Positions 1,507-24,529 of a DNA stretch of 57,321 nt are shown here, piece after piece (positions within the stretch are counted from its first letter, which is position 1; each line of letters starts with the position of its first letter). Under the pieces are notes generated by a model that was not told where the DNA came from, made no database searches, and was given only the letters and a program-made list of their open reading frames with translations. The stretch spans positions 1-57,321 of the IMG/VR virus record IMGVR_UViG_3300037502_001747; one strand, written 5' to 3'. Both the position numbers and the translations under genes were made by a program. This stretch comes from a virus. Its lineage: Duplodnaviria; Caudoviricetes.

Positions 1507-3054
1507 TCATTCCTTTCCCATCTGGGCGATCAGGTCGAGGAGCACGCCCTGCAACTTCTGCTTATTCTGCAGACGCTGGTATATACGGTGCTCGACCTCA
1601 GTTGCTTCTATGTGCACTACGTTCGACACATGCTTCTTGCCGATACGTTCTACACGTCCGTTGGCTTGAACATACTGTTCGTTACTGGTGATAGGTCCAT
1701 ACCATACAACAGTTGACGCCGCTGTCAAGGTCAATCCATGCGCCATTGTTGCCGGGTGTGCGATAAGAACGCGCGGGTCGCGCGAGTTCTGGAAGTTGTA
1801 GAAGATGCTGTTCCGCTTGGCCGACGACACCTCGCCGTTAACCACAGCCACGCTCCAGTCCTTGGACAGTTCGCGCTCCAGCATCCGCAGGGTGCCTGTC
1901 AGGGGGACGAACAGGATGACCTTCTCGCCTGCCTCCTCGATCACCTCGCGCACTGCGTTGATGCGCGGCTTACAGTCCAGTTCGAGCGGCTCTCCGTTCT
2001 CCCCGTAGGCCACGCCCAGCGCGATCTGGATCAGCTTCTGCGCCTTGACCGCCTCGTTCACTGCCGTGATGGTGCCGCCCTCGACCTCGGTGACCAGCTG
2101 CCGCAGCATCTGCTTGAAGTGCTTGGCCTGATCCGGGGTCAAGTCCACCTTGCGCGTCTGCGTGATGGTGTCCGGCAGGTCGAGACAGTCCTCACGGGTG
2201 AACCTGATGGATGGTTGGAGCACGTGCTTCACAACGTCCACGCTCTCGGGCCGGGGCACGAACTTCCACTGGCCGATCTTCATCATGACCTGCTCACGGA
2301 ACCCGGTGAAACTCTTGGACATGTGCGGGCTATCGACCAGCTTGGCCAGTGCCCATGCGTCGGTCGGTTCGTTGGGGGTGGGTGTGCCTGTCATCAGCCA
2401 CAGTCGCATGTTGGGCTGCACCTGCAGCCAGCGATAGAACTGCTTGAAGCGCCGGGTCGATGGGTTCCTGTACACCGCCGCCTCGTCGATGATGACGAGG
2501 TCGAACTTATCCAGCGCCTCCTTGGCGATGATCGGGAAGCCGTCGTGGTTGATGATGTAGAAGTCTGCGTCGGTATCCAGCAGCTTGAGCCTGCGCTTGG
2601 CGTCACCGTAGAGGGTCACCGACTTGCGGTGGTAGAACTCCTTGAAGATAGCGTCGGCCCACACTCGCTCCAGTGTGGAGAGAGGGGACAGGATCAGCAC
2701 CTTTTTGATCACGCCCTTGTTCATCAGGAAGTCGGCTGCCCACAGGGAACTCACCGTCTTGCCAGTGCCGATCGAGTTCAGCACCAAACATCTTTTGTGC
2801 AGCGTGAGGAACTCAGCCGTGGACTTCTGGTGAGAGTAGGGGGTGAACCGGCCGGGCCAGTCGTACTGATATCCAATCGGTGATGGCGGGTTGAACCCCA
2901 GTTCCTTGAGGCGCTGCATCTCCTGCACCCGGTGCGGCATGACCACGATGCGGGGATCGGACGGAAGTTGGCGGGCCTTGGGTATACACTCCAGTACCCT
3001 ACTGGGGTCATTCAGCTTGAGGGCGACTGCCTTCGCCTCCTGCACGACGAGCAT
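1507..3054 (-). CDS. SNF2-family (SF2) helicase
   Basis: Walker A GTGKT, IIDEAA, MTGTPTPN, HGLTLTAA, QANGRVERIG. Confidence 0.92.
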   Translation of the reverse strand: MLVVQEAKAVALKLNDPSRVLECIPKARQLPSDPRIVVMPHRVQEMQRLKELGFNPPSPIGYQYDWPGRFTPYSHQKSTAEFLTLHKRCLVLNSIGTGKTVSSLWAADFLMNKGVIKKVLILSPLSTLERVWADAIFKEFYHRKSVTLYGDAKRRLKLLDTDADFYIINHDGFPIIAKEALDKFDLVIIDEAAVYRNPSTRRFKQFYRWLQVQPNMRLWLMTGTPTPNEPTDAWALAKLVDSPHMSKSFTGFREQVMMKIGQWKFVPRPESVDVVKHVLQPSIRFTREDCLDLPDTITQTRKVDLTPDQAKHFKQMLRQLVTEVEGGTITAVNEAVKAQKLIQIALGVAYGENGEPLELDCKPRINAVREVIEEAGEKVILFVPLTGTLRMLERELSKDWSVAVVNGEVSSAKRNSIFYNFQNSRDPRVLIAHPATMAHGLTLTAASTVVWYGPITSNEQYVQANGRVERIGKKHVSNVVHIEATEVEHRIYQRLQNKQKLQGVLLDLIAQMGKE

Positions 3055-3337
3055 GTATCCACTCCCTTACTTGCTCAATGGTTGTCTTGTCATAGACCAC
3101 GAAGCATTTGCCTCCGGCCTTCTCGATGTCCGCCATGCACTTGATCTGCAGGGCAGTGGGCTTCTTAGTGGCATCTGCTTTACACTCGATGCCCACGAAC
3201 AAACCTTCCACGACCGCAACTCGGTCTGGAATACCAGCCCCACCAAATGGTCCGGCCTGCGGGGGGTAAAACCACACCCGCTCGGCCTTCAACATTCTAT
3301 CGAGGGCAGCCTTCACTTTGCTCTCGGGGGTCGCCAT
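3008..3337 (-). CDS. VRR-NUC domain nuclease (putative resolvase)
   Basis: MATPESKVK...GIPD...FVGIECKA...PTALQ. The true start is 3337, inside the longer called ORF. Confidence 0.88.
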   Translation of the reverse strand: MATPESKVKAALDRMLKAERVWFYPPQAGPFGGAGIPDRVAVVEGLFVGIECKADATKKPTALQIKCMADIEKAGGKCFVVYDKTTIEQVREWIHARRAGGEGSRPQAE

Positions 3338-3339
3338 GG

Positions 3340-4011
3340 TCAAGCGGCAAATTCGCAGAAGCCCTTGCAGGGGCAGAACTTGCACAGCCCGCTCGGCTTG
3401 GCGGGCCAGTTGTCTGTCTCCACTGACTTCTCCACTCGGTGGATGCGGGTCAGCAGCCGGGTCCACATGTCGTCGAGGTGCTCCCGCTTGTACGTCTCCT
3501 TGTCGGTGGCGTTCTCCTTGGTCCACACAAACATGGATGACACACGGTCGGCCGAGGGCCAGAAGCTGAACACCGCAAGGGCGAACATCTCCAGCTGATC
3601 GAAGTCGGGGCGGCGCTTGCCTGTCTTCCAGTCGATCACGATGGCCCTGCCGTTGGGGCGGATAGCCAGCACGTCCAGCTTGAAGCGCAGCCATGCGTCC
3701 GGTGCGAACCACGACGTGGGCTTGAGGTCACTGGTCAGGGTGTACTCCTGCTCGACGAGCAGCATCCCGCCACCCTTGGCGTTTTCGATCACCGTGTCGC
3801 ACAGCGGCTTGAGTGCAGCGGTCTCCTCCGGCAGGCCAGTGGCCGGAGCCTTGAGGTATTCTTCTAGCTGCTTGTGCACCCGCTCACCGTAGACCGTGGC
3901 CGTGCCCGGCTGGTCCTGCACCTCCTTGGTGACACGCTGGTGGTAGTACCTCTTGGGGCAGTTCTCGTACATCTTGAGGGCAGTGTACGAGTGGGCCAGC
4001 TTAACAGTCAT
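3340..4011 (-). CDS. PD-(D/E)XK Cas4/RecB-like exonuclease
   Basis: SYTALKMYENCPKRY, GERVH, KLD...IDWKTGK, QL, and a C-terminal CKFCPCKGFC cysteine cluster. Confidence 0.88.
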   Translation of the reverse strand: MTVKLAHSYTALKMYENCPKRYYHQRVTKEVQDQPGTATVYGERVHKQLEEYLKAPATGLPEETAALKPLCDTVIENAKGGGMLLVEQEYTLTSDLKPTSWFAPDAWLRFKLDVLAIRPNGRAIVIDWKTGKRRPDFDQLEMFALAVFSFWPSADRVSSMFVWTKENATDKETYKREHLDDMWTRLLTRIHRVEKSVETDNWPAKPSGLCKFCPCKGFCEFAA

Positions 4012-20229: not shown

Positions 20230-20736
20230 ATGCCACCCACAGCCGCACTTAGTCCATTTTCCGTAGAGGAACTTCGGGCCGTCTTTACACTAGACGCCGA
20301 ACGCGGGGTTTTGTACCGCGTCTCCACTGGCAAGCCAGCCGCGGTAAAGTGGAAACGCAACTGGGGTAAACTGCGGGGCTGGGTTGTTGTGAAGGACCGG
20401 CGCGAGGTCGCCGTACATAGGGTCATCTGGGCGTTATATTACGGCAGTTGGCCAGAGCAAAGTGTGGACCACATAGATGGTGATACAGAGAATAATAGGA
20501 TAGCTAACCTCCGTGATGTGAGCGTAGCTACAAACTCTCGTAACACGAAGAAGTACGGCAACAATACATCCGGGTATATAGGGGTGACGCGTACTGCGTC
20601 GGGGAGGTGGCAGGCTAGGATCGGCTATAACATGGGTAGAATCTGCCTAGGTAGTTTCGACACGGCCGAAGAGGCTTACGCAGCGTATAGAAAAAAGGCT
20701 GCAGAGCTAGGGTTTCACGACAACCACGGTCGCTAA
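20230..20736 (+). CDS. Free-standing HNH homing endonuclease with AP2-like domain
   Basis: VHRVIW...VDHIDGDTENNRIANLR; NTSGYIGV...RWQARI...LGSFDTAEEA. Confidence 0.9.
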   Translation: MPPTAALSPFSVEELRAVFTLDAERGVLYRVSTGKPAAVKWKRNWGKLRGWVVVKDRREVAVHRVIWALYYGSWPEQSVDHIDGDTENNRIANLRDVSVATNSRNTKKYGNNTSGYIGVTRTASGRWQARIGYNMGRICLGSFDTAEEAYAAYRKKAAELGFHDNHGR

Positions 20737-20780: not shown

Positions 20781-21257
20781 ATGTACATCAGCCCCGTCCA
20801 AACCAAGTGGAACGACCGGTTCGCGTTTGACCTCGCCCTTTTGCTGGAAGGGAGCGGGGAGAAGATCGACGAACTGCTGGATCGGCACGAATTCGACGCC
20901 TCCGATCTGCTGACGTTCAACAAGGACACCCTGTTCCACAAGAAAGTCGAGGCTTACCGGGAAGAAGTACGCACCAAGGGCCTGACATTCCGGGTCAAGG
21001 CGCGTGCGCAGGCTGAAGAACTGCTCAAAACCTCATGGTTGCTCATCCACGACCCCGTGGTTAGCCCTGCGGTGAAGGCCGATCTCATCAAATCTGTCGT
21101 ACGCTGGGCCGGTTTAGAGACGCCGCCGAAGGAGGAGGGCATTGGGGGTGCCGGAGGTGTGACGATTACCATCAACCTTGGGGGCAGGCAGTTGGATGTG
21201 ACAGCGAAACCCGCCCCTCTTGAGTTGAACGGCGCGGACTACTCGGAGGTCGAGTGA
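20781..21257 (+). CDS. terS: Putative terminase small subunit
   Basis: Helical protein upstream of TerL with C-terminal VTITINLG strand. Confidence 0.6.
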   Translation: MYISPVQTKWNDRFAFDLALLLEGSGEKIDELLDRHEFDASDLLTFNKDTLFHKKVEAYREEVRTKGLTFRVKARAQAEELLKTSWLLIHDPVVSPAVKADLIKSVVRWAGLETPPKEEGIGGAGGVTITINLGGRQLDVTAKPAPLELNGADYSEVE

Positions 21258-21811
21258 TTTTTTCTCCCGTGGTTAGGGTGATAGTCGAGCGCAACCTCTG
21301 CAGCTCTACGCGCGGCCACGGCTTCCGCCATAGTATCGAATGTGCCGAGCTGTATCAGCTTACCAGAGTCGGATATCCGTGCCCTCCACCTGCCGTTGCG
21401 CAGGCTCACGCCTAGCACTGCGTCAGATTTGTTGCCCCTAGTAGCCACATTTTTGGCGTTTTCGCCTCGCGACACACTTCGGAGGTTGCACAGGCGGTTG
21501 TCAGCCCGATCACCGTTGATGTGGTCGACAAAATCCGGGTCTTCGCCGTGTACCAGCTTCCATATGAGCCTGTGGACCTTATAGGTGTTGCCCATTATGC
21601 GAGCGCAGAGGTACCCCTCATCACTGAGCGACCCGACAGTGGTGTCTGCAAACCGCTTGTTCCACCATTTCTGCTGCCATTCACGGGTACGCGCAGCGGT
21701 GGGTACAAATTCCTCCAGCGATCTGTGGTTCCACAGCACCGTACCCGTTTCTTGGTTGTACCGGAGCAGTTTTTGTAGCACTATTTGCTCTGGGAGCGCG
21801 GTAATCTTCAT
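21239..21811 (-). CDS. Free-standing HNH homing endonuclease with AP2-like domain (antisense to the packaging operon)
   Basis: YKVHRLIW...VDHINGDRADNRLCNLR; RWRARI...LGTFDTMAEA; AGGAGG RBS. Confidence 0.9.
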   Translation of the reverse strand: MKITALPEQIVLQKLLRYNQETGTVLWNHRSLEEFVPTAARTREWQQKWWNKRFADTTVGSLSDEGYLCARIMGNTYKVHRLIWKLVHGEDPDFVDHINGDRADNRLCNLRSVSRGENAKNVATRGNKSDAVLGVSLRNGRWRARISDSGKLIQLGTFDTMAEAVAARRAAEVALDYHPNHGRKNHSTSE

Positions 21812-21834
21812 GATGACCTCCTTGAATGAGCTCA

Positions 21835-21863
21835 ACCGTAGCCCAAGGTAGCTTTGATGTCAA
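21835..21863 (-). promoter_or_regulatory. Putative sigma70 promoter for HNH-2
   Basis: TTGACA (21863-21858)-N17-TACGGT. Confidence 0.6.
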
Positions 21864-21865
21864 CG

Positions 21866-22015
21866 ATGAAACCTAAAGTTCACCTGTTCCACAGCCTGTT
21901 TGCGGCGCAGGCGTTCATCGCCACCCAGAAAGCCGCCCAAAAGTCCTATCGCGCCCTGCGCATACCCCGCCCGAAGCGCGGAAAACCCCTCTACACGGTG
22001 GTTGTCTATGGCTGA
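21866..22015 (+). CDS. Small basic protein, 49 aa (not in ORF track)
   Basis: MKPKVHLFHSLFAAQAF...TVVVYG; overlaps the next start. Confidence 0.45.
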   Translation: MKPKVHLFHSLFAAQAFIATQKAAQKSYRALRIPRPKRGKPLYTVVVYG

Positions 22016-22250
22016 GATCAAGAAGTTCTACCCGAAAGACGCTGCCAAGGACGCTGACAACGTTCTGGAGCAGGCGCTGGGGGTCTACGACGACGTCTTG
22101 CTTATTGGGTGGAACAAGGACGGCAACATGGAGGCCCGAGCGACCCTCGGGCTGAAAGACGGCGGCGATTGCCTTTGGCTGATCGAGAAGTTTAAGCACA
22201 ATCTGCTGGACGGGCGGTACTTGCCGCCTGAAATGCAAGAGGACGAGTGA
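22008..22250 (+). CDS. Hypothetical protein
   Basis: MAEIKKFYP...VLLIGWNKDG...LWLIEKFK; TGATG coupling to TerL. Confidence 0.7.
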   Translation: MAEIKKFYPKDAAKDADNVLEQALGVYDDVLLIGWNKDGNMEARATLGLKDGGDCLWLIEKFKHNLLDGRYLPPEMQEDE

Positions 22251-24529
22251 TGGCCCTCGACATCTCCTACACTCCGACCCCCACGGTCGCGAAATTCATG
22301 GATTCCAACGCCAAGATGCGCGTGATCATGGGTCCTGTCGGGTGCGTTGCACCCGAGACGCTGGTCCTTACGGAGTATGGTCCGCTTCCCATCGCGCGTA
22401 TAGATCGTCCAATGCGCGTTGTATCGTGGAACGAGAAGACATCTCGATTCCAGCTTTCTTGGTGTGGTGGAGCGTTCCCGAAAGGTACGGACTATCTATA
22501 CCGAGTGACAACGCGGCAAGGAGAATTTGCCGCAAACGAACATCACCTCGTGCTCGACGGGCAGCGTGCATATCGACGCGCTCGATCTCTGCGCCAAGGT
22601 CAGTCCTTATCCCAGTGTTCTGACGTCCGCGCGTTGATACGTTCGGCCCCCGACCTGCCAGTGTCGCATGAAGGTGATCCTGATTTGATCGGAACAGCCG
22701 TAGATTCTCTGGCGCATTATGCAGCGTCAGCCCGTCAATATGGTCTACGACTTCTGCGGGAAGAAGGTATCGACCAAGAGTTTGCCCCATCACAAGACGG
22801 TGCTCGTAGATCAGCTTACCGGTTCGGTTCGTACGCTGCCGGGCGTATGGATGGTCTTGTGGCGCAGTTACGAGCACGTACCCGTCTTGGTCTATCCTCC
22901 GCCCTGACGCGAATTGGTGATTTGCTCGGCCGGGTTGGGCACCTTCTGCTCGCCTTGGAAGGTCGAGTCGCAGCATCACCTTACGCACATAGCGGGGGGA
23001 CAGCCCCACTAGGGCTGCTATCTCCGCAGAAGTCTTCAGGCCGTCGGCCAACGCCACGATCTGTTTCGTATTCTCGTTCCACTCTCGGGGCATGTAACAT
23101 ATCCTCCAATGCCAACGGGGCCATATTGAAGGTAGAGCGCGAGACTGTCAAGCGGTCTTATTGGGACATGCAAGTACTTGATACAAACAACTACGTGACA
23201 GTGGACGGCACTATCCACCATAACAGCGGTAAGTCCGTGGCGTGCTGTTTCGAGATTGTCCGGCGGGCTGCCCAGCAGAAACCGAACGAGCAGGGCGTGC
23301 GCAAGACCCGCTGCGCTGTGGTTCGTGAGACCGTGCGCCAACTCTCGGATACCACGATCAAGACCTTCCTCGACTGGTTCCCTCCGGGGGTCTGCGGCCA
23401 CTTCATGCGCACCACCAAGACCTATTTCTTCAAGGTCGGGGATGTGGAGTGCGAGATTATGTTCCGCGCGCTGGACGACGCGGACGACGTGGCCAACCTG
23501 AACTCTCTCGAACTGACCTTCGCGTGGTTTAACGAATGCCGGGACATTCACCCCGACATCGTGGACGCGATGTCTAAGCGGGTCGGCCGATTCCCCTCCG
23601 CCAAGGATGGCGGGGCGACGTGGCATGGGATGTGGGCGGATACCAACCCGCCCACCATGGATACGTGGTGGTTCTACCAGATGGAACACATCGACCCCAA
23701 GGACGGGGTCAGCCCCAACAACAACGGGTGGGATGTCTTCAAGCAACCGTCAGGACGGAGCCCATATGCAGAGAACATCGAGAACCTACCGGAGGGATAC
23801 TATGACACCCAAGGTCGCTCGGAGGAGTACATCCGGGTTTTCATCGACGGTGACTACGGACTCTCCCTCGCAGGTACGCCGGTGTTCAAATACTTCCGCC
23901 CGGATTACCACATGGCACGTGCCACCCTTCGACCCATTATCAACGGCACTCGGCCTGTCATCGTTGGTATGGACCTTGGTCTCACGCCTGCGGCTGTGAT
24001 CGGGCAGCAGGACCCGAGGGGGCGGGCGCTCGTCATGGCGGAGGCCGTCAGCTACGACATGGGGGTGCAACGCTTCGTCAGGACGGTGCTCAAGCCCCTG
24101 CTCTTCGAACGCTTCGCGGGGGCGCCGGTCATCGTGGTGGTCGACCCGGCGGGTATCCAGAGGGCGCAGACAGACGAGCGCAGTGCGGTCGACATCATCA
24201 AGGCCGAGGGGTTCAGGGTCATGCCAGCCCGGACCAACAGCATCACGGCGCGCATCGCCGCCGTAGACGACTACCTCATGCGGCAGGTGGACGGTGACCC
24301 GGGGTTCCTAGTCGACCCCAGCTGCACGAGACTTAAAGCCGCCATGATGGGTGGGTACCGGTTTAAGAAGAATGGCGATGGGTTGGAGAAGGGTGGAGAC
24401 GCAGGTAAGCACAGCCACATCGGGGACGCCATCAGTTACCTCTGCCTGCACATTGGTAGTCTCGACAGTGGCGCGTTGATGCACCAACGCAGGGAGGTTA
24501 AGCGCATTGACTCCAAGGGGTGGACGTGA
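22250..24529 (+). CDS. terL: Terminase large subunit, intein-containing (about 465 aa after splicing)
   Basis: Walker A GPVG^SGKS is split by the intein; Walker B WFNE, DTNPP coupling motif, nuclease GMDLG, DPAG, HSHIGDA. Confidence 0.93.
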   Translation: MALDISYTPTPTVAKFMDSNAKMRVIMGPVGCVAPETLVLTEYGPLPIARIDRPMRVVSWNEKTSRFQLSWCGGAFPKGTDYLYRVTTRQGEFAANEHHLVLDGQRAYRRARSLRQGQSLSQCSDVRALIRSAPDLPVSHEGDPDLIGTAVDSLAHYAASARQYGLRLLREEGIDQEFAPSQDGARRSAYRFGSYAAGRMDGLVAQLRARTRLGLSSALTRIGDLLGRVGHLLLALEGRVAASPYAHSGGTAPLGLLSPQKSSGRRPTPRSVSYSRSTLGACNISSNANGAILKVERETVKRSYWDMQVLDTNNYVTVDGTIHHNSGKSVACCFEIVRRAAQQKPNEQGVRKTRCAVVRETVRQLSDTTIKTFLDWFPPGVCGHFMRTTKTYFFKVGDVECEIMFRALDDADDVANLNSLELTFAWFNECRDIHPDIVDAMSKRVGRFPSAKDGGATWHGMWADTNPPTMDTWWFYQMEHIDPKDGVSPNNNGWDVFKQPSGRSPYAENIENLPEGYYDTQGRSEEYIRVFIDGDYGLSLAGTPVFKYFRPDYHMARATLRPIINGTRPVIVGMDLGLTPAAVIGQQDPRGRALVMAEAVSYDMGVQRFVRTVLKPLLFERFAGAPVIVVVDPAGIQRAQTDERSAVDIIKAEGFRVMPARTNSITARIAAVDDYLMRQVDGDPGFLVDPSCTRLKAAMMGGYRFKKNGDGLEKGGDAGKHSHIGDAISYLCLHIGSLDSGALMHQRREVKRIDSKGWT
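22368..23093 (-). CDS. HTH-HNH endonuclease encoded antisense entirely inside the intein
   Basis: HTH TSAEIAALVGLSPRYVRKVM; DGYVLV...HPYA...YEHRLVM...LGRYL...EVVDHIDGLTLHNAPENLRLF; GGAGG RBS at 23107-23103. Confidence 0.88.
   Translation of the reverse strand: MPREWNENTKQIVALADGLKTSAEIAALVGLSPRYVRKVMLRLDLPRRAEGAQPGRANHQFASGRRIDQDGYVLVTAPQDHPYARQRTNRTGKLIYEHRLVMGQTLGRYLLPAEVVDHIDGLTLHNAPENLRLFRSNQDHLHATLAGRGPNVSTRGRQNTGIRTDLGAEIERVDMHAARRARGDVRLRQILLAALSLGIDSPYLSGTLHHTKKAGIEMSSRSTIQRALDDLYARWEADHTP
23123..23151 (-). promoter_or_regulatory. Putative sigma70 promoter for the intein-nested HNH
   Basis: TTGACA (23151-23146)-N17-CAATAT within intein codons. Confidence 0.55.

What the first reader, a model, noticed from the sequence alone, without database searches (positions are those of the whole stretch)
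22343..23224. Terminase intein whose homing endonuclease is a separate antisense gene nested inside it
Seen: a 294-aa intein (C...HHN|S) splits the TerL Walker A motif (GPVG^SGKS). Its central ~160 aa show no LAGLIDADG or HNH motif and look like Arg/Ser/Gly-rich filler. The opposite strand of the same DNA holds an intact 241-aa ORF (23093->22368) with an N-terminal HTH and an HNH core (YEHRLVM...EVVDHIDGLTLHNAPENL). It has a GGAGG RBS 9 nt upstream and a TTGACA-N17-CAATAT promoter-like element written into the intein's C-terminal codons. Both frames stay open over 726 bp, including the N-terminal splicing region. The antisense codons are offset from the TerL codons, unlike the in-register shadow ORFs elsewhere in this genome. 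Established: canonical inteins carry their endonuclease in frame. Inference: a free-standing HNH invaded a mini-intein backwards, so homing is uncoupled from late TerL translation and the antisense text is spliced out as a tolerated linker. I recall out-of-frame intein endonucleases being reported in actinobacteriophages, so novelty for this phage group needs checking.
Basis: partly seen in the sequence, partly recalled or inferred. Interest (0 to 1): 0.92.

Follow-up and report, generated by a model that had tools for sequence, protein, structure and literature searches.

The report
Terminase intein with backward HNH gene
A self-splicing protein insert in a phage DNA-packaging gene carries its DNA-cutting "homing" enzyme as a separate gene written backwards on the opposite strand, and part of that DNA encodes both proteins at once.

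Summary
The 760-aa TerL ORF (22247-24529 +) holds a 294-aa class-1 intein (22343-23224) that splits Walker A (GPVG|SGKS). The opposite strand holds an intact 241-aa HTH-HNH gene (23093-22368).

This is not chance. In 174 of 174 related loci the opposite frame is open across the HNH gene. Synonymous shuffles predict 2-12 stops where none is seen.

Selection switches frame along the element. The intein frame is constrained in the C-terminal blocks and the HNH frame in the middle. Both frames are constrained over about 165 bp (22398-22562), where the HNH C-terminal helical domain lies antisense to the intein's N-terminal splicing blocks.

An SD and a sigma-70-like -35 box sit in the intein's codons with frozen synonymous sites.

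The intein is sporadic. Of the 80 closest TerL relatives, 72 lack it, 7 carry it and 1 is cut off. Two of the intein-less ones are 98-99% identical in DNA.

However, the architecture is ancient and widespread, not a local invasion. Antisense endonucleases in inteins are already known (LAGLIDADG, VSR-like). An HNH version and dual coding with the splicing domain were not found in print. Expression, splicing and cleavage remain untested.

The parts
22247..24529 (+). TerL precursor ORF (760 aa): N-extein, intein and C-extein
   Evidence: ORF listed. Terminase hits, all below curated cut-offs: Pfam Terminase_3 E=4.7e-4, phrog_979 terminase large subunit E=9.2e-6, TIGR01547 E=1.6e-9 on the C-extein.
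22343..23224 (+). Class-1 intein, 294 aa (C1 ... H293 N294, then Ser+1), inserted in Walker A between GPVG and SGKS
   Evidence: Sequence. C1, H68, D275, H292, H293 and N294 are invariant in 61 sequences. The AF2 model matches mini-inteins at E down to 8.8e-7, TMt 0.72-0.86.
22343..22618 (+). N-terminal Hint splicing region (intein residues 1-92)
   Evidence: pLDDT 91-97, beta-rich; conserved blocks.
22778..23095 (+). Plus-frame linker of the intein (residues 146-251), predicted disordered; it is the antisense read-through of the HNH gene
   Evidence: pLDDT below 50 for residues 146-251. Over the wider stretch 22640-23090, which covers this linker, the intein frame has dN/dS 2.79 and the HNH frame 0.14. 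No stops against 5.57 expected.
23108..23224 (+). C-terminal Hint splicing region (intein residues 256-294, blocks F and G)
   Evidence: pLDDT 93-95. In the part tested (23150-23222), intein-frame dN/dS is 0.01. Free third codon positions were shown for residues 273-294.
22368..23093 (-). Antisense HTH-HNH homing-endonuclease gene (241 aa plus stop codon at 22368-22370)
   Evidence: Homologues: 793 proteins. AF2 mean pLDDT 83.8.
22968..23075 (-). N-terminal helix-turn-helix of the HNH protein (aa 7-42)
   Evidence: Pfam HTH_29/HTH_28/HTH_23, weak and below cut-offs. Three helices with pLDDT about 89-93.
22674..22805 (-). HNH catalytic core (aa 97-140: EHRLV ... EVVDHIDG ... LHN ... NLRLF ... 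N..H)
   Evidence: Pfam HNH_3 over aa 97-138. E97, H98, R99, D117, H118, D120, H125, N126, N130, N137 and H140 are invariant in 59 sequences.
22383..22571 (-). C-terminal helical domain of the HNH protein (aa 175-237), encoded antisense to intein residues ~14-77
   Evidence: Helices 175-182, 184-197, 208-213 and 221-237 with pLDDT 90-96. No Pfam or NCBIfam family. Found in only one clade of the HNH tree.
22398..22562 (.). Dual-coded core: both frames under purifying selection
   Evidence: All three codon positions have low diversity, 0.17-0.36. Third positions of conserved intein codons are frozen, e.g. I20 ATA 57/57, G60 GGA 62/62, H68 CAC 63/63. dN and dS are low in both frames.
23103..23107 (-). 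Shine-Dalgarno GGAGG, 9 nt before the HNH ATG
   Evidence: Sequence. An SD-like motif occurs in 50 of 63 relatives. Intein codons S255 and S257 have frozen third positions (45/48 and 37/39). That these TCC codons are the reverse complement of the SD is my own mapping from the sequence.
23123..23151 (-). Promoter-like element: TTGACA (23146-23151), 17-nt spacer, CAATAT (23123-23128)
   Evidence: Sequence. The same aligned place holds TTGACN-N17-TAnnAT-like sites in 27 of 63 relatives, against 15 sites in 110,637 background positions. V269 GTC 37/39 and K270 AAG 41/42 are frozen. The window's own -10 hexamer is weak and the scan tool finds no promoter.
22331..22342 (+). Upstream half of the insertion (homing) site, GPVG codons
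   Evidence: Compared with intein-less relatives; 22342 differs (GGG against GGC).
23225..23236 (+). Downstream half of the insertion site, SGKS codons, recoded relative to the nearest intein-less alleles
   Evidence: Six synonymous differences at 23225-23235 against L084 and L086. The same 12 replaced letters appear in contigs of 4 of 4 runs.

Best explanation
This is a mobile class-1 intein in the Walker A (P-loop) codons of the phage large terminase gene. Its homing endonuclease is a separate HTH-HNH gene on the opposite strand, not a domain of the intein protein.

Inferred working cycle:
1. The HNH gene is transcribed from its own sigma-70-like promoter and translated from its own SD. Both signals lie inside the intein's C-terminal-proximal codons, so the enzyme can be made independently of terL.
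2. During co-infection the enzyme nicks or cuts an intein-less terL allele near the Walker A codons. Repair from the intein-bearing genome then copies the whole element in, together with about a dozen flanking bases.
3. When terL is translated, the ribosome reads straight through the reverse complement of the HNH gene. This yields a stop-free, largely disordered linker of about 100-150 residues between the two halves of a Hint domain. The intein then splices itself out and restores GPVG-SGKS.

Selection therefore acts on three layers. The intein protein is constrained at both ends. The HNH protein is constrained in the middle. Both are constrained over about 165 bp, where the HNH C-terminal helical domain is written antisense to the N-terminal splicing blocks.

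Shown here: the anatomy, the frame-specific selection, the maintained open frames, the conserved signals, the Hint fold, and the presence/absence polymorphism with recoded flanks.

Inferred: transcription, translation, splicing, the cleavage site and the timing.
For: Anatomy.

HNH identity:
- phrog_10730 E=9.8e-57 and Pfam HNH_3 above its cut-off.
- Catalytic residues invariant in 59 sequences.
- HNH-frame dN/dS 0.14.

Intein identity:
- Hint fold, with 26 PDB intein/Hint matches at E<=1e-3.
- C1, H68, D275, H293 and N294 invariant in 61 sequences.
- dN/dS 0.01 in the C-terminal blocks.

Both frames maintained:
- The opposite frame is open across the HNH match in 83 of 83, 80 of 80 and 11 of 11 loci.
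- There are 0 stops in 63 of 63 distinct sequences, against 2.2-12.5 expected; 61 of 63 have fewer than 5% of shuffles open.
- The frame relation is identical in 63 of 63 and 69 of 69 distinct sequences.

Dual coding:
- Per-position diversity and frozen synonymous sites.
- Low dN and low dS in both frames.
- No HNH-frame stop in 63 of 63, against 1.87 expected per sequence.
- The C-domain is predicted at pLDDT 90-96.

Expression signals:
- SD in 50 of 63.
- A -35/-10 pair at one aligned place in 27 of 63, against a background of 15 in 110,637 positions.
- Frozen V269/K270 and S255/S257 codons outside the HNH ORF.

Mobility:
- 72 of the 80 closest TerL relatives lack the intein, 7 have it and 1 is cut off.
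- L084 is 98-99% identical in its flanks but intein-less.
- Seven synonymous changes fall within 1 nt upstream and 11 nt downstream of the insertion point, against 0-4 per 200 nt elsewhere.
- Contigs that join across the intein occur in 4 of 4 runs from 4 studies.
- The element occurs in 29 extein clusters at 35% identity.
Against: - No transcript, protein, splicing or cleavage data exist. No RNA run holding the sequence was listed.
- The window's own -10 hexamer (CAATAT) matches only 3 of 6 bases, and the scan tool finds no promoter in 21800-23600. 36 of 63 relatives fail my strict promoter rule and 13 of 63 lack an SD by my rule, though some of these have mis-set starts.
- The HNH model's best PDB match (I-HmuI) is weak: E=0.09, TM 0.28-0.37.
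- For the window alone, the N-terminal HNH-frame openness is not significant: 0.44 stops expected and 59% of shuffles open. That argument rests on the family.
- The related sequences are not independent, so counts such as 63 of 63 overstate the number of independent tests.
- TerL family hits are all below curated cut-offs.
- Presence/absence among near-identical alleles fits precise loss by recombination with an intein-less allele as well as it fits gain by homing.
Confidence: 0.85

Rival explanations
1. The HNH gene is an independent selfish element that uses the intein only as a safe harbour. On this view it moves, or once moved, on its own between inteins, and the intein is not mobilised by it.
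For: The catalytic core belongs to the broad free-standing phage HNH_3 family; distant relatives are intergenic genes in Streptomyces phage Cursive and Halobacterium phage phiH. The window carries two other free-standing HNH genes beside terL. Gosselin et al. (section 15) propose that free-standing endonucleases invaded inteins.
Against: The frame relation is identical in all 132 distinct sequences, and the HNH stop and start positions within the intein are conserved. Both point to one old insertion inherited with the intein, not repeated invasions. The HNH ORF overlaps the splicing blocks, so it cannot be excised or inserted without destroying the intein. In the window's nearest relatives the intein and the HNH are present or absent together, with a precise junction at the extein boundary.
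Confidence: 0.07
2. The HNH protein is a packaging cofactor of the terminase, like the HNH proteins encoded next to terminase genes in cos phages, and not a homing enzyme.
For: HNH genes beside terminase genes are common and some are needed for packaging (abstracts of PMC3592412 and PMC12967558 in the listing). The gene lies inside terL.
Against: 72 of the 80 closest TerL relatives, including ones with 100% identical C-exteins, lack both the intein and the HNH, so it is dispensable for packaging. The same nested HNH also occurs in DNA helicase P-loop inteins (L171 and L200). It is always inside an intein: 174 of 174 loci.
Confidence: 0.04
3. The antisense ORF is a chance or relic shadow ORF that is no longer functional. 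On this view the element is a mini-intein with a decaying insert.
For: GC-rich genomes carry many long antisense ORFs; several are listed. There is no direct evidence of expression.
Against: HNH-frame dN/dS is 0.14 and the catalytic residues are invariant. The ORF is intact in relatives with GC as low as 39%. It matches phrog_10730 at E=9.8e-57 over its full length. The frame is offset, unlike the typical shadow ORFs.
Confidence: 0.02
4. The low variability at 22398-22562 reflects a DNA- or RNA-level constraint, such as a binding site or a structure, and not a second protein-coding layer. On this view the HNH C-terminal tail is a hitch-hiking read-through.
For: Both frames cannot be separated by dN/dS alone in an overlap. 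The window's own shuffle test for this stretch is not significant. The atlas search of the C-domain gave only low-scoring unnamed clusters.
Against: The HNH frame stays open to intein residue 6-17 in 63 of 63 distinct sequences, against 1.87 stops expected each. HNH-frame dN (0.055) is even lower than intein-frame dN (0.087) here. AF2 predicts a four-helix domain at pLDDT 90-96. Short-form relatives that lack the domain stop earlier, at intein residue ~37-83, so the read-through is not forced by the intein sequence.
Confidence: 0.1

Closest known systems
Non-canonical inteins with an anti-sense homing endonuclease ORF. Anti-sense LAGLIDADG comes from Gorbalenya 1998 and Gogarten 2002, as cited by Gosselin et al.; I have not seen those two papers. 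Anti-sense LAGLIDADG and VSR-like in actinobacteriophage inteins come from Gosselin, Arsenault and Gogarten, bioRxiv 10.1101/2025.01.02.630785 (sections 8 and 15 read).
   Same: A complete, contiguous intein whose endonuclease is a separate ORF on the opposite strand inside the intein. The large terminase is one of the host proteins. The proposed origin is invasion of an intein by a free-standing endonuclease gene. The distribution suggests continued transfer.
   Different: The endonuclease here is an HTH-HNH (HNH_3) enzyme. That paper lists HNH only as an in-frame domain. The carriers here are Pectobacterium/Dickeya and Pseudoalteromonas phages, uncultured viral contigs, and contigs in bacterial isolate genomes and metagenome bins, not actinobacteriophages. 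[quoted passage not shown] A promoter-like element and an SD embedded in intein codons are described here. Their supplementary tables could not be opened and might list further types.
Fractured genes: split inteins with a free-standing GIY-YIG or VSR-like endonuclease gene between the halves (Dassa et al. 2009, PMC2677866; passages read)
   Same: The endonuclease is a separately translated gene located between the N- and C-terminal splicing parts. Terminase is among the hosts. Short coding overlaps of 6-69 bp between the endonuclease and the intein part are reported.
   Different: There the host gene is physically broken into two genes and the intein acts in trans. The endonuclease families differ. 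Here the host ORF stays continuous, because the reverse-complement frame is kept free of stops, and the overlap is antisense and about 165-250 bp long.
ShiLan-type hidden out-of-frame HNH insertion in a phage DNA methylase (Arsenault et al. 2025, PMC11855218; abstract read)
   Same: An HNH endonuclease ORF hidden in an alternative frame of an insertion that is stop-free in the host gene's frame. It is a mobile insertion in a phage gene.
   Different: ShiLan is on the same strand in another frame and has no detectable splicing domains. Here the HNH is antisense and is embedded in a bona fide Hint-fold intein.
I-HmuI and the HNH_3 family of phage homing endonucleases (PDB 1u3e)
   Same: An HNH (beta-beta-alpha-metal) core joined to helical DNA-binding modules. 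I-HmuI is the best structural match of the model.
   Different: The match is weak (E=0.09). From recall, I-HmuI is encoded sense-strand inside a group I intron. The domain order also differs: here it is HTH, then HNH, then a helical C-domain.

Membership tests
Intein (class 1, Hint fold) | N-terminal Cys/Ser/Thr nucleophile at the upstream junction | tested here: met
   C1 follows GPVG; invariant in 61 of 61 sequences.
Intein (class 1, Hint fold) | Block B histidine, block F aspartate, C-terminal His-Asn, and Ser/Thr/Cys at +1 | tested here: met
   H68, D275, H293 and N294 are invariant. The +1 residue is Ser, Thr in L001. Assignment of these residues to named blocks is from my own knowledge of intein motifs.
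Intein (class 1, Hint fold) | Hint fold formed by the N- and C-terminal parts | tested here: met
   AF2 pLDDT 91-97 for residues 1-92 and 93-95 for residues 261-294. Foldseek matches Ssp DnaB, Npu DnaB and Mtu RecA mini-inteins at E=8.8e-7 to 1e-4, TMt 0.72-0.86. Pfam Intein_splicing is below its cut-off, 18 against 35.8 bits.
Intein (class 1, Hint fold) | In-frame insertion at a conserved site of the host protein, with intein-less alleles that restore the motif | tested here: met
   72 intein-less relatives read GPVG-SGKS without interruption.
Intein (class 1, Hint fold) | Protein splicing activity | not testable with these tools
   Needs a reporter or a western blot.
HNH endonuclease (Pfam HNH_3, PF13392) | Profile match above the curated threshold | tested here: met
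   25.6 bits against a cut-off of 24.8, E=9.2e-6. Fourteen PHROG families matched, thirteen of them annotated HNH or DNA-binding; best 9.8e-57.
HNH endonuclease (Pfam HNH_3, PF13392) | Conserved His/Asn/Asp residues of the beta-beta-alpha-metal core | tested here: met
   H98, D117, H118, H125, N126, N130, N137 and H140 are invariant in 59 sequences. Which residue is the general base is not determined.
HNH endonuclease (Pfam HNH_3, PF13392) | Beta-beta-alpha fold matching solved HNH enzymes | tested here: inconclusive
   The model has strand-helix elements at aa 93-145 with pLDDT 90-94. The whole-chain Foldseek best hit, I-HmuI, has E=0.09.
HNH endonuclease (Pfam HNH_3, PF13392) | Nuclease activity | not testable with these tools
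   Needs purified protein.
Homing endonuclease / mobile intein | Sporadic presence at one site among closely related alleles | tested here: met
   Of the 80 closest TerL relatives, 7 carry the intein, 72 lack it and 1 is cut off. Intein-less alleles at 98-99% nt identity. Joints across the intein in 4 of 4 runs.
Homing endonuclease / mobile intein | Co-conversion or recoding of flanking exon (extein) bases | tested here: met
   Seven synonymous differences clustered at 22342 and 23225-23235 against L084 and L086. Whether they arose by co-conversion or by selection for immunity is not resolved.
Homing endonuclease / mobile intein | Cleavage of the intein-less target and super-Mendelian inheritance | not testable with these tools
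   Needs cleavage and co-infection assays.
Inteins with anti-sense endonuclease ORF (as described by Gosselin et al. 2025) | Endonuclease ORF on the strand opposite the intein, inside it | tested here: met
Inteins with anti-sense endonuclease ORF (as described by Gosselin et al. 2025) | Endonuclease of the LAGLIDADG or VSR-like family | tested here: not met
   The enzyme is HNH_3.
Inteins with anti-sense endonuclease ORF (as described by Gosselin et al. 2025) | Secondary ORF lies outside the splicing blocks (stated there as typical, not as a definition) | tested here: not met
   The HNH stop lies at intein nt 17-50 in 62 of 63 distinct sequences; in L031 the frame runs on past the intein start. 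The dual-coded stretch is 22398-22562.
Large terminase subunit (TerL) | Profile match to terminase ATPase and nuclease families | tested here: inconclusive
   Terminase_3 at 20.2-20.5 bits (cut-off 23.2), TIGR01547 at 37.7 bits (cut-off 105), phrog_979 E=9.2e-6. No PDB sequence match. Homologous carriers are annotated or scored as TerL.
Large terminase subunit (TerL) | Walker A motif near the N-terminus | tested here: met
   GPVG|SGKS is restored on removal of the intein.

The most novel reading that the evidence does not exclude
The C-terminal four-helix domain of this HNH endonuclease (aa ~175-237) arose de novo by overprinting. An ancestral short antisense HNH ORF lost its stop and extended across the reverse complement of the intein's ancient N-terminal Hint blocks. 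The result is about 55-60 codons held under simultaneous purifying selection in two antisense frames.

The overlap welds endonuclease and intein into one inseparable unit, since neither can decay or be excised without killing the other. This may explain why this clade is so widespread.

Support:
- The domain has no family match.
- It occurs in 71 of 72 tips of one clade (SH-aLRT 99) and in 0 of 55 rows outside it.
- Short-form relatives stop at intein residue ~37-83.
- The Hint blocks it overlaps are homologous to those of all inteins, so they must be the older layer.

Open points: the tree is unrooted, so one loss instead of one gain is not excluded. The function of the domain (DNA binding is my guess) is untested.
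Probability: 0.5. Interest if true: 0.85.

Novelty: new variant of a known kind. Interest (0 to 1): 0.72.

Why it matters
- **Scale.** An intein can carry its homing enzyme as an independently expressed antisense gene on a large scale: 293 + 508 viral-contig hits, 793 proteins, at least 29 extein clusters, and both terminases and helicases. Such inteins look like endonuclease-less inteins to surveys that read only the host frame. Annotators also mis-split the host gene, as in PHS3, or miss the endonuclease, as in Ymer.
- **Dual coding.** This is a clean natural case of long antisense dual coding, with frame-specific selection that can be read directly from comparative data. It may also be a datable case of domain birth by overprinting.
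- **Timing of homing.** Separate promoter and SD signals would let homing act before late gene expression, which bears on how inteins spread in phage populations.
- **Tools.** The family offers new HNH nickases or cutters aimed at P-loop codons, and inteins that tolerate a 100-150-residue disordered insert. Both are useful starting points for protein engineering.

Tried and rejected
- **Close DNA relatives in GenBank phages.** Megablast of terL against the phage collection found nothing. Relatives came from protein-level searches instead.
- **Solved structures by sequence.** HNH, intein and C-extein gave nothing meaningful.
- **Foldseek of the whole HNH model.** Only a weak I-HmuI hit.
- **Atlas search of HNH aa 168-241.** Best scores were 0.89-0.90, to unnamed clusters of small proteins. 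I treat this as no lead.
- **Consensus promoter/terminator scan of 21800-23600.** No promoter. One terminator-like site on the minus strand at 22258-22239, against 1.4 expected by chance. Not used.
- **RNA evidence.** No RNA holder was listed, so expression could not be examined.
- **Depths.** They are contig figures and were not used to rank alleles.
- **My first regular expressions.**
  - The N-junction pattern mis-set several loci (L031 and L059, corrected).
  - It left many of the second set unresolved. Statements on where short-form HNH ORFs stop rest only on the resolved rows.
  - A motif-based long/short label mis-scored about a dozen rows and was replaced by an HMM label.
- **Start codons.** Start codons taken as the first ATG are wrong for L010, L011, L026 and L052. 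These four were left out of the upstream alignment but kept in the counts.
- **Group I intron reading.** Considered and rejected, because the frame is continuous, the fold is Hint and the junction residues are those of an intein.
- **Literature searches**. None returned a report of an antisense HNH gene in an intein. The library holds only open-licence PMC papers and bioRxiv, so this is not proof of absence. Supplementary files were not requested and may bear on it.

Full report
**1. What is there**

The window is a complete 57,321-bp virus record with direct terminal repeats and about 60% G+C. Most long ORFs lie on the minus strand up to ~18 kb and on the plus strand after ~19 kb.

The ORF 22247-24529 (+) encodes 760 aa. 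Residues 33-326 form an insertion that begins with Cys after GPVG and ends in His-His-Asn before SGKS. The insertion is therefore 294 aa (22343-23224) inside the Walker A motif.

The flanking protein scores as a large terminase, though only below curated cut-offs: Pfam Terminase_3, phrog_979 and TIGR01547.

On the opposite strand, 23093 to 22368 is an ATG-started ORF of 241 aa. It matches phrog_10730 'HNH endonuclease' end to end (E=9.8e-57). It also matches Pfam HNH_3 just above its cut-off and weak HTH families at aa 12-43.

The TTGACA-N17-CAATAT element lies at 23146-23151 and 23123-23128. Both can be read directly.

HNH codon position 1 falls on TerL codon position 1. Of nine other minus-strand shadow ORFs checked, seven are in register and two lie on position 2.

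**2. Is it more than chance?**

Yes. Synonymous shuffling of the window's HNH codons gives 5.57 plus-frame stops on average, and only 1 of 500 shuffles stays open. The other two antisense frames of the real sequence hold 7 stops each.

Comparative data are stronger. A tblastn search of GenBank phages found full-length homologues (45-50% identity) in eight Pectobacterium/Dickeya phages and in Pseudoalteromonas phage PHS3. In Ymer and PHS3 the opposite strand carries a 754-aa and a 708-aa ORF that run straight through the HNH gene. Both read G|C...HHN|(T/S)GKS.

A scan of viral contigs found 293 relatives, and the best 80 were kept. With the two GenBank loci and the window, 83 of 83 have the opposite frame open over the whole HNH match. 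Of these, 81 show the Walker A junctions and two are cut by contig ends.

These reduce to 63 distinct intein sequences with G+C from 0.39 to 0.62. All share the same frame relation. All have 0 stops where shuffles predict 2.2-12.5, mean 7.2.

**3. Which frame is the gene?**

Across the 63 sequences, nucleotide diversity by codon position changes along the element (window coordinates).

| Stretch | What varies | Reading |
|---|---|---|
| 23224-23148 | Intein third positions 0.53-0.61, others 0.13-0.23 | Intein frame constrained |
| 23072-22640 | HNH third positions 0.62-0.70 (these are intein second positions) | HNH frame constrained |
| 22620-22548 | All positions about 0.45-0.55 | Little constraint |
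| 22562-22398 | All three positions 0.17-0.36 | Both frames constrained |

Nei-Gojobori estimates on 80 pairs at 70-93% identity agree.

| Stretch | Intein-frame dN/dS | HNH-frame dN/dS |
|---|---|---|
| C-terminal blocks | 0.01 | 3.6 |
| Central part | 2.79 | 0.14 |
| Dual stretch | 0.74 (dN 0.087, dS 0.13) | 0.30 (dN 0.055, dS 0.22) |

Elsewhere dS is 0.9-1.3, so both dN and dS are low in the dual stretch.

At conserved intein residues 16-77 the third codon position is frozen. Examples are P16 CCC 45/45, I20 ATA 57/57, G60 GGA 62/62, H68 CAC 63/63 and Y77 TAT 63/63. At residues 1-13 and 273-294 it varies freely. Mean diversity at four-fold sites is 0.30 (n=14) in the first group and 0.62 (n=6) in the C-terminal part.

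The HNH frame has no stop between its conserved stop site (intein nt 17-50) and intein codon 92 in 63 of 63 sequences. Shuffles predict 1.87 per sequence on average, but only 0.44 for the window itself.

**4. Structures**

*The plus-frame intein*, modelled with 61 sequences:
- Residues 1-92 and 256-294 form a beta-rich domain at pLDDT 91-97.
- Two helices lie at residues 95-140 (pLDDT 80-93).
- Residues 146-251 have pLDDT below 50.

Foldseek places the model among mini-inteins (Ssp DnaB, Npu DnaB, Mtu RecA; E down to 8.8e-7, TMt 0.72-0.86). There are 26 matches at E<=1e-3, and no endonuclease match for the insert.

C1, H68, D275, H292, H293 and N294 are invariant.

The helical stretch 113-140 lies opposite the most conserved HNH codons. 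Its conservation is probably a by-product of that; this is an inference.

*The HNH protein*, mean pLDDT 83.8:
- a three-helix N-terminal module (aa 7-42);
- a strand-helix core (aa 93-145, pLDDT 90-94);
- a poorly predicted linker (aa 150-170);
- a four-helix C-terminal domain (aa 175-237, pLDDT 90-96).

Its best PDB match is I-HmuI, but weakly, at E=0.09. The residues expected of an HNH core are invariant in 59 sequences.

**5. Expression signals**

An SD-like word lies 4-18 nt before the ATG in 50 of 63 sequences.

In an alignment of the upstream region, a TTGAC-like box, a 17-nt spacer and a TAnnAT-like box recur at one aligned place. By a strict rule, 27 of 63 have it, against 15 such sites in 110,637 other positions.

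The intein codons that hold these signals have frozen third positions although they lie outside the HNH ORF: V269 GTC 37/39, K270 AAG 41/42, S255 45/48 and S257 37/39. This points to a DNA-level constraint.

Against this, the window's own -10 is weak and the scan tool reports no promoter.

No RNA run was available.

**6. Mobility**

Among the 80 closest relatives of the C-extein (79-100% aa identity), 72 lack the intein, 7 carry it and 1 is truncated.

L084 is 98.2-99.0% identical to the window in DNA on both sides but has no intein. It differs at 22342, 23225, 23226, 23227, 23230, 23234 and 23235. All seven changes are synonymous, and they include two Ser codons switched between the AGY and TCN families. 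Elsewhere there are 0-4 differences per 200 nt. L086 shows the same seven changes.

Contigs of four public DNA runs from four studies join 22341 to 23236 with the same 12 replaced letters. Other contigs of those runs cover the intein.

This is the pattern expected of a homing element with a very short co-converted or immunising flank. It does not by itself distinguish gain from precise loss.

**7. How wide is the family?**

A profile search of 1.84 billion representatives found 232 proteins at E<=1e-30 and 10,174 at E<=1e-10.
- The top ~45 representatives match over the full length.
- Weaker ones match only the HTH and HNH parts.

Loci for seven such shorter proteins were also all nested. Of 508 hits, the best 80 were kept:
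- The opposite frame is open in 80 of 80.
- An HN|(S/T/C)GK(S/T) junction is present in 64 of 80.
- All 69 distinct sequences have the same frame relation.

Eleven of eleven hits in prokaryote genome contigs are nested too, including contigs of Enterobacter and Acinetobacter isolates.

The 156 usable C-exteins fall into 29 clusters at 35% identity. Of 20 representatives, 10 score as terminases, 2 as DNA helicases, 1 otherwise and 7 not at all.

More distant relatives of the catalytic core are free-standing genes.

**8. The C-terminal domain**

Where junctions could be resolved:
- Short-form HNH ORFs stop at intein residue ~37-83.
- Long forms stop at residue 8-22.

On a quick maximum-likelihood tree of the HTH-HNH core (127 rows, 151 columns), the 71 rows with the domain (HMM label) all lie in one clade of 72 tips (SH-aLRT 99). 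The 72nd tip, L168, has a cut-short domain. All 55 rows outside lack it.

The domain has no family match. It is written antisense to Hint blocks shared by all inteins, so it is the younger layer. The likeliest origin is extension of the ORF by overprinting. The tree is unrooted, so a single loss cannot be excluded.

**9. Comparison with what is known**

Gosselin, Arsenault and Gogarten (bioRxiv 10.1101/2025.01.02.630785; abstract, sections 8 and 15 and passages read) report actinobacteriophage inteins with:
- anti-sense LAGLIDADG endonucleases;
- anti-sense VSR-like endonucleases;
- in-frame HNH domains.

They credit Gorbalenya 1998 and Gogarten 2002 for anti-sense LAGLIDADG; I have not seen those papers. 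[quoted passage not shown]

Dassa et al. 2009 (PMC2677866, passages read) describe split inteins with free-standing endonuclease genes and short same-strand overlaps.

Arsenault et al. 2025 (PMC11855218, abstract read) describe a hidden out-of-frame HNH in a methylase insertion without splicing domains.

Six full-text searches found no antisense HNH in an intein. The library is limited and supplements were not seen.

The architecture is therefore a known kind. Three things appear new: the HNH family as the antisense enzyme, the dual coding with the splicing blocks, and the embedded signals together with the size and host range of the family.

**10. Verdict**

- Confidence that this is a mobile terminase intein with a separately encoded, functional antisense HNH homing endonuclease is 0.85.
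- Expression, splicing and cleavage are inferred, not shown.

Noticed in passing
window 20230-20736 (+) and 21239-21835 (-): Two further free-standing HNH endonuclease genes lie just upstream of terL. Both match phrog_99 at E~1e-53 and Pfam HNH_3; the second also has a weak AP2 match. That makes three HNH genes within 3 kb.
   Followed up: partly
window 22008-22250 (+): An 80-aa ORF (phrog_11040, unknown function) abuts the terL start. It is absent from the near-identical relatives L084 and L085 and from contigs of 4 of 4 runs (joint 22005->22249, with 4 letters between). Five substitutions cluster at 22253-22264 beside the junction. This looks like another presence/absence insertion.
   Followed up: partly
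L039, L048, L055 (TerL ORFs of ~1125 aa): These carriers have TerL ORFs about 360 aa longer than the rest. The C-extein of L039 hits PHROG profiles for thymidylate synthase and ribonucleotide reductase at aa 33-153, which may mark a second intein.
   Followed up: no
L001 (OP748252) 1625-3889; L002 (KX912252) 1691-3817: The GenBank annotations miss the architecture. PHS3 annotates only the C-extein as terminase large subunit and the HNH as a separate gene. Ymer annotates the 754-aa precursor as hypothetical protein and does not annotate the HNH ORF.
   Followed up: yes
L061, L062, L067-L069, L071, L075, L078, L079: These are variants whose HNH protein is 276-305 aa long, with what looks like a second N-terminal HTH-like module. 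The intein is correspondingly longer, 336-358 aa.
   Followed up: no
L171 900-2237 (-); L200 1347-2303 (-): The same nested antisense HTH-HNH arrangement occurs in inteins of proteins that score as DNA helicase (phrog_62, E=2.5e-58 and 1.7e-26). The family is therefore not confined to terminases.
   Followed up: partly
L168: This is the only member of the long-form clade whose HNH C-terminal domain is cut short. It may be a secondary loss.
   Followed up: no
intein-plus against intein-minus alleles, first extein codon after the intein: The +1 Ser codon is often AGC or AGT in intein-bearing alleles, and in all of the most distant ones. It is mostly TCN in the 72 intein-less alleles. This may be a trace of flank co-conversion from the donor. 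No statistics were run because the lineages are not independent.
   Followed up: partly
L251, L256, L253 (genome contigs): Nested copies lie on long contigs (186-544 kb) of Enterobacter pasteurii, an Acinetobacter isolate and a Paracoccaceae bin. This suggests prophage carriers.
   Followed up: no
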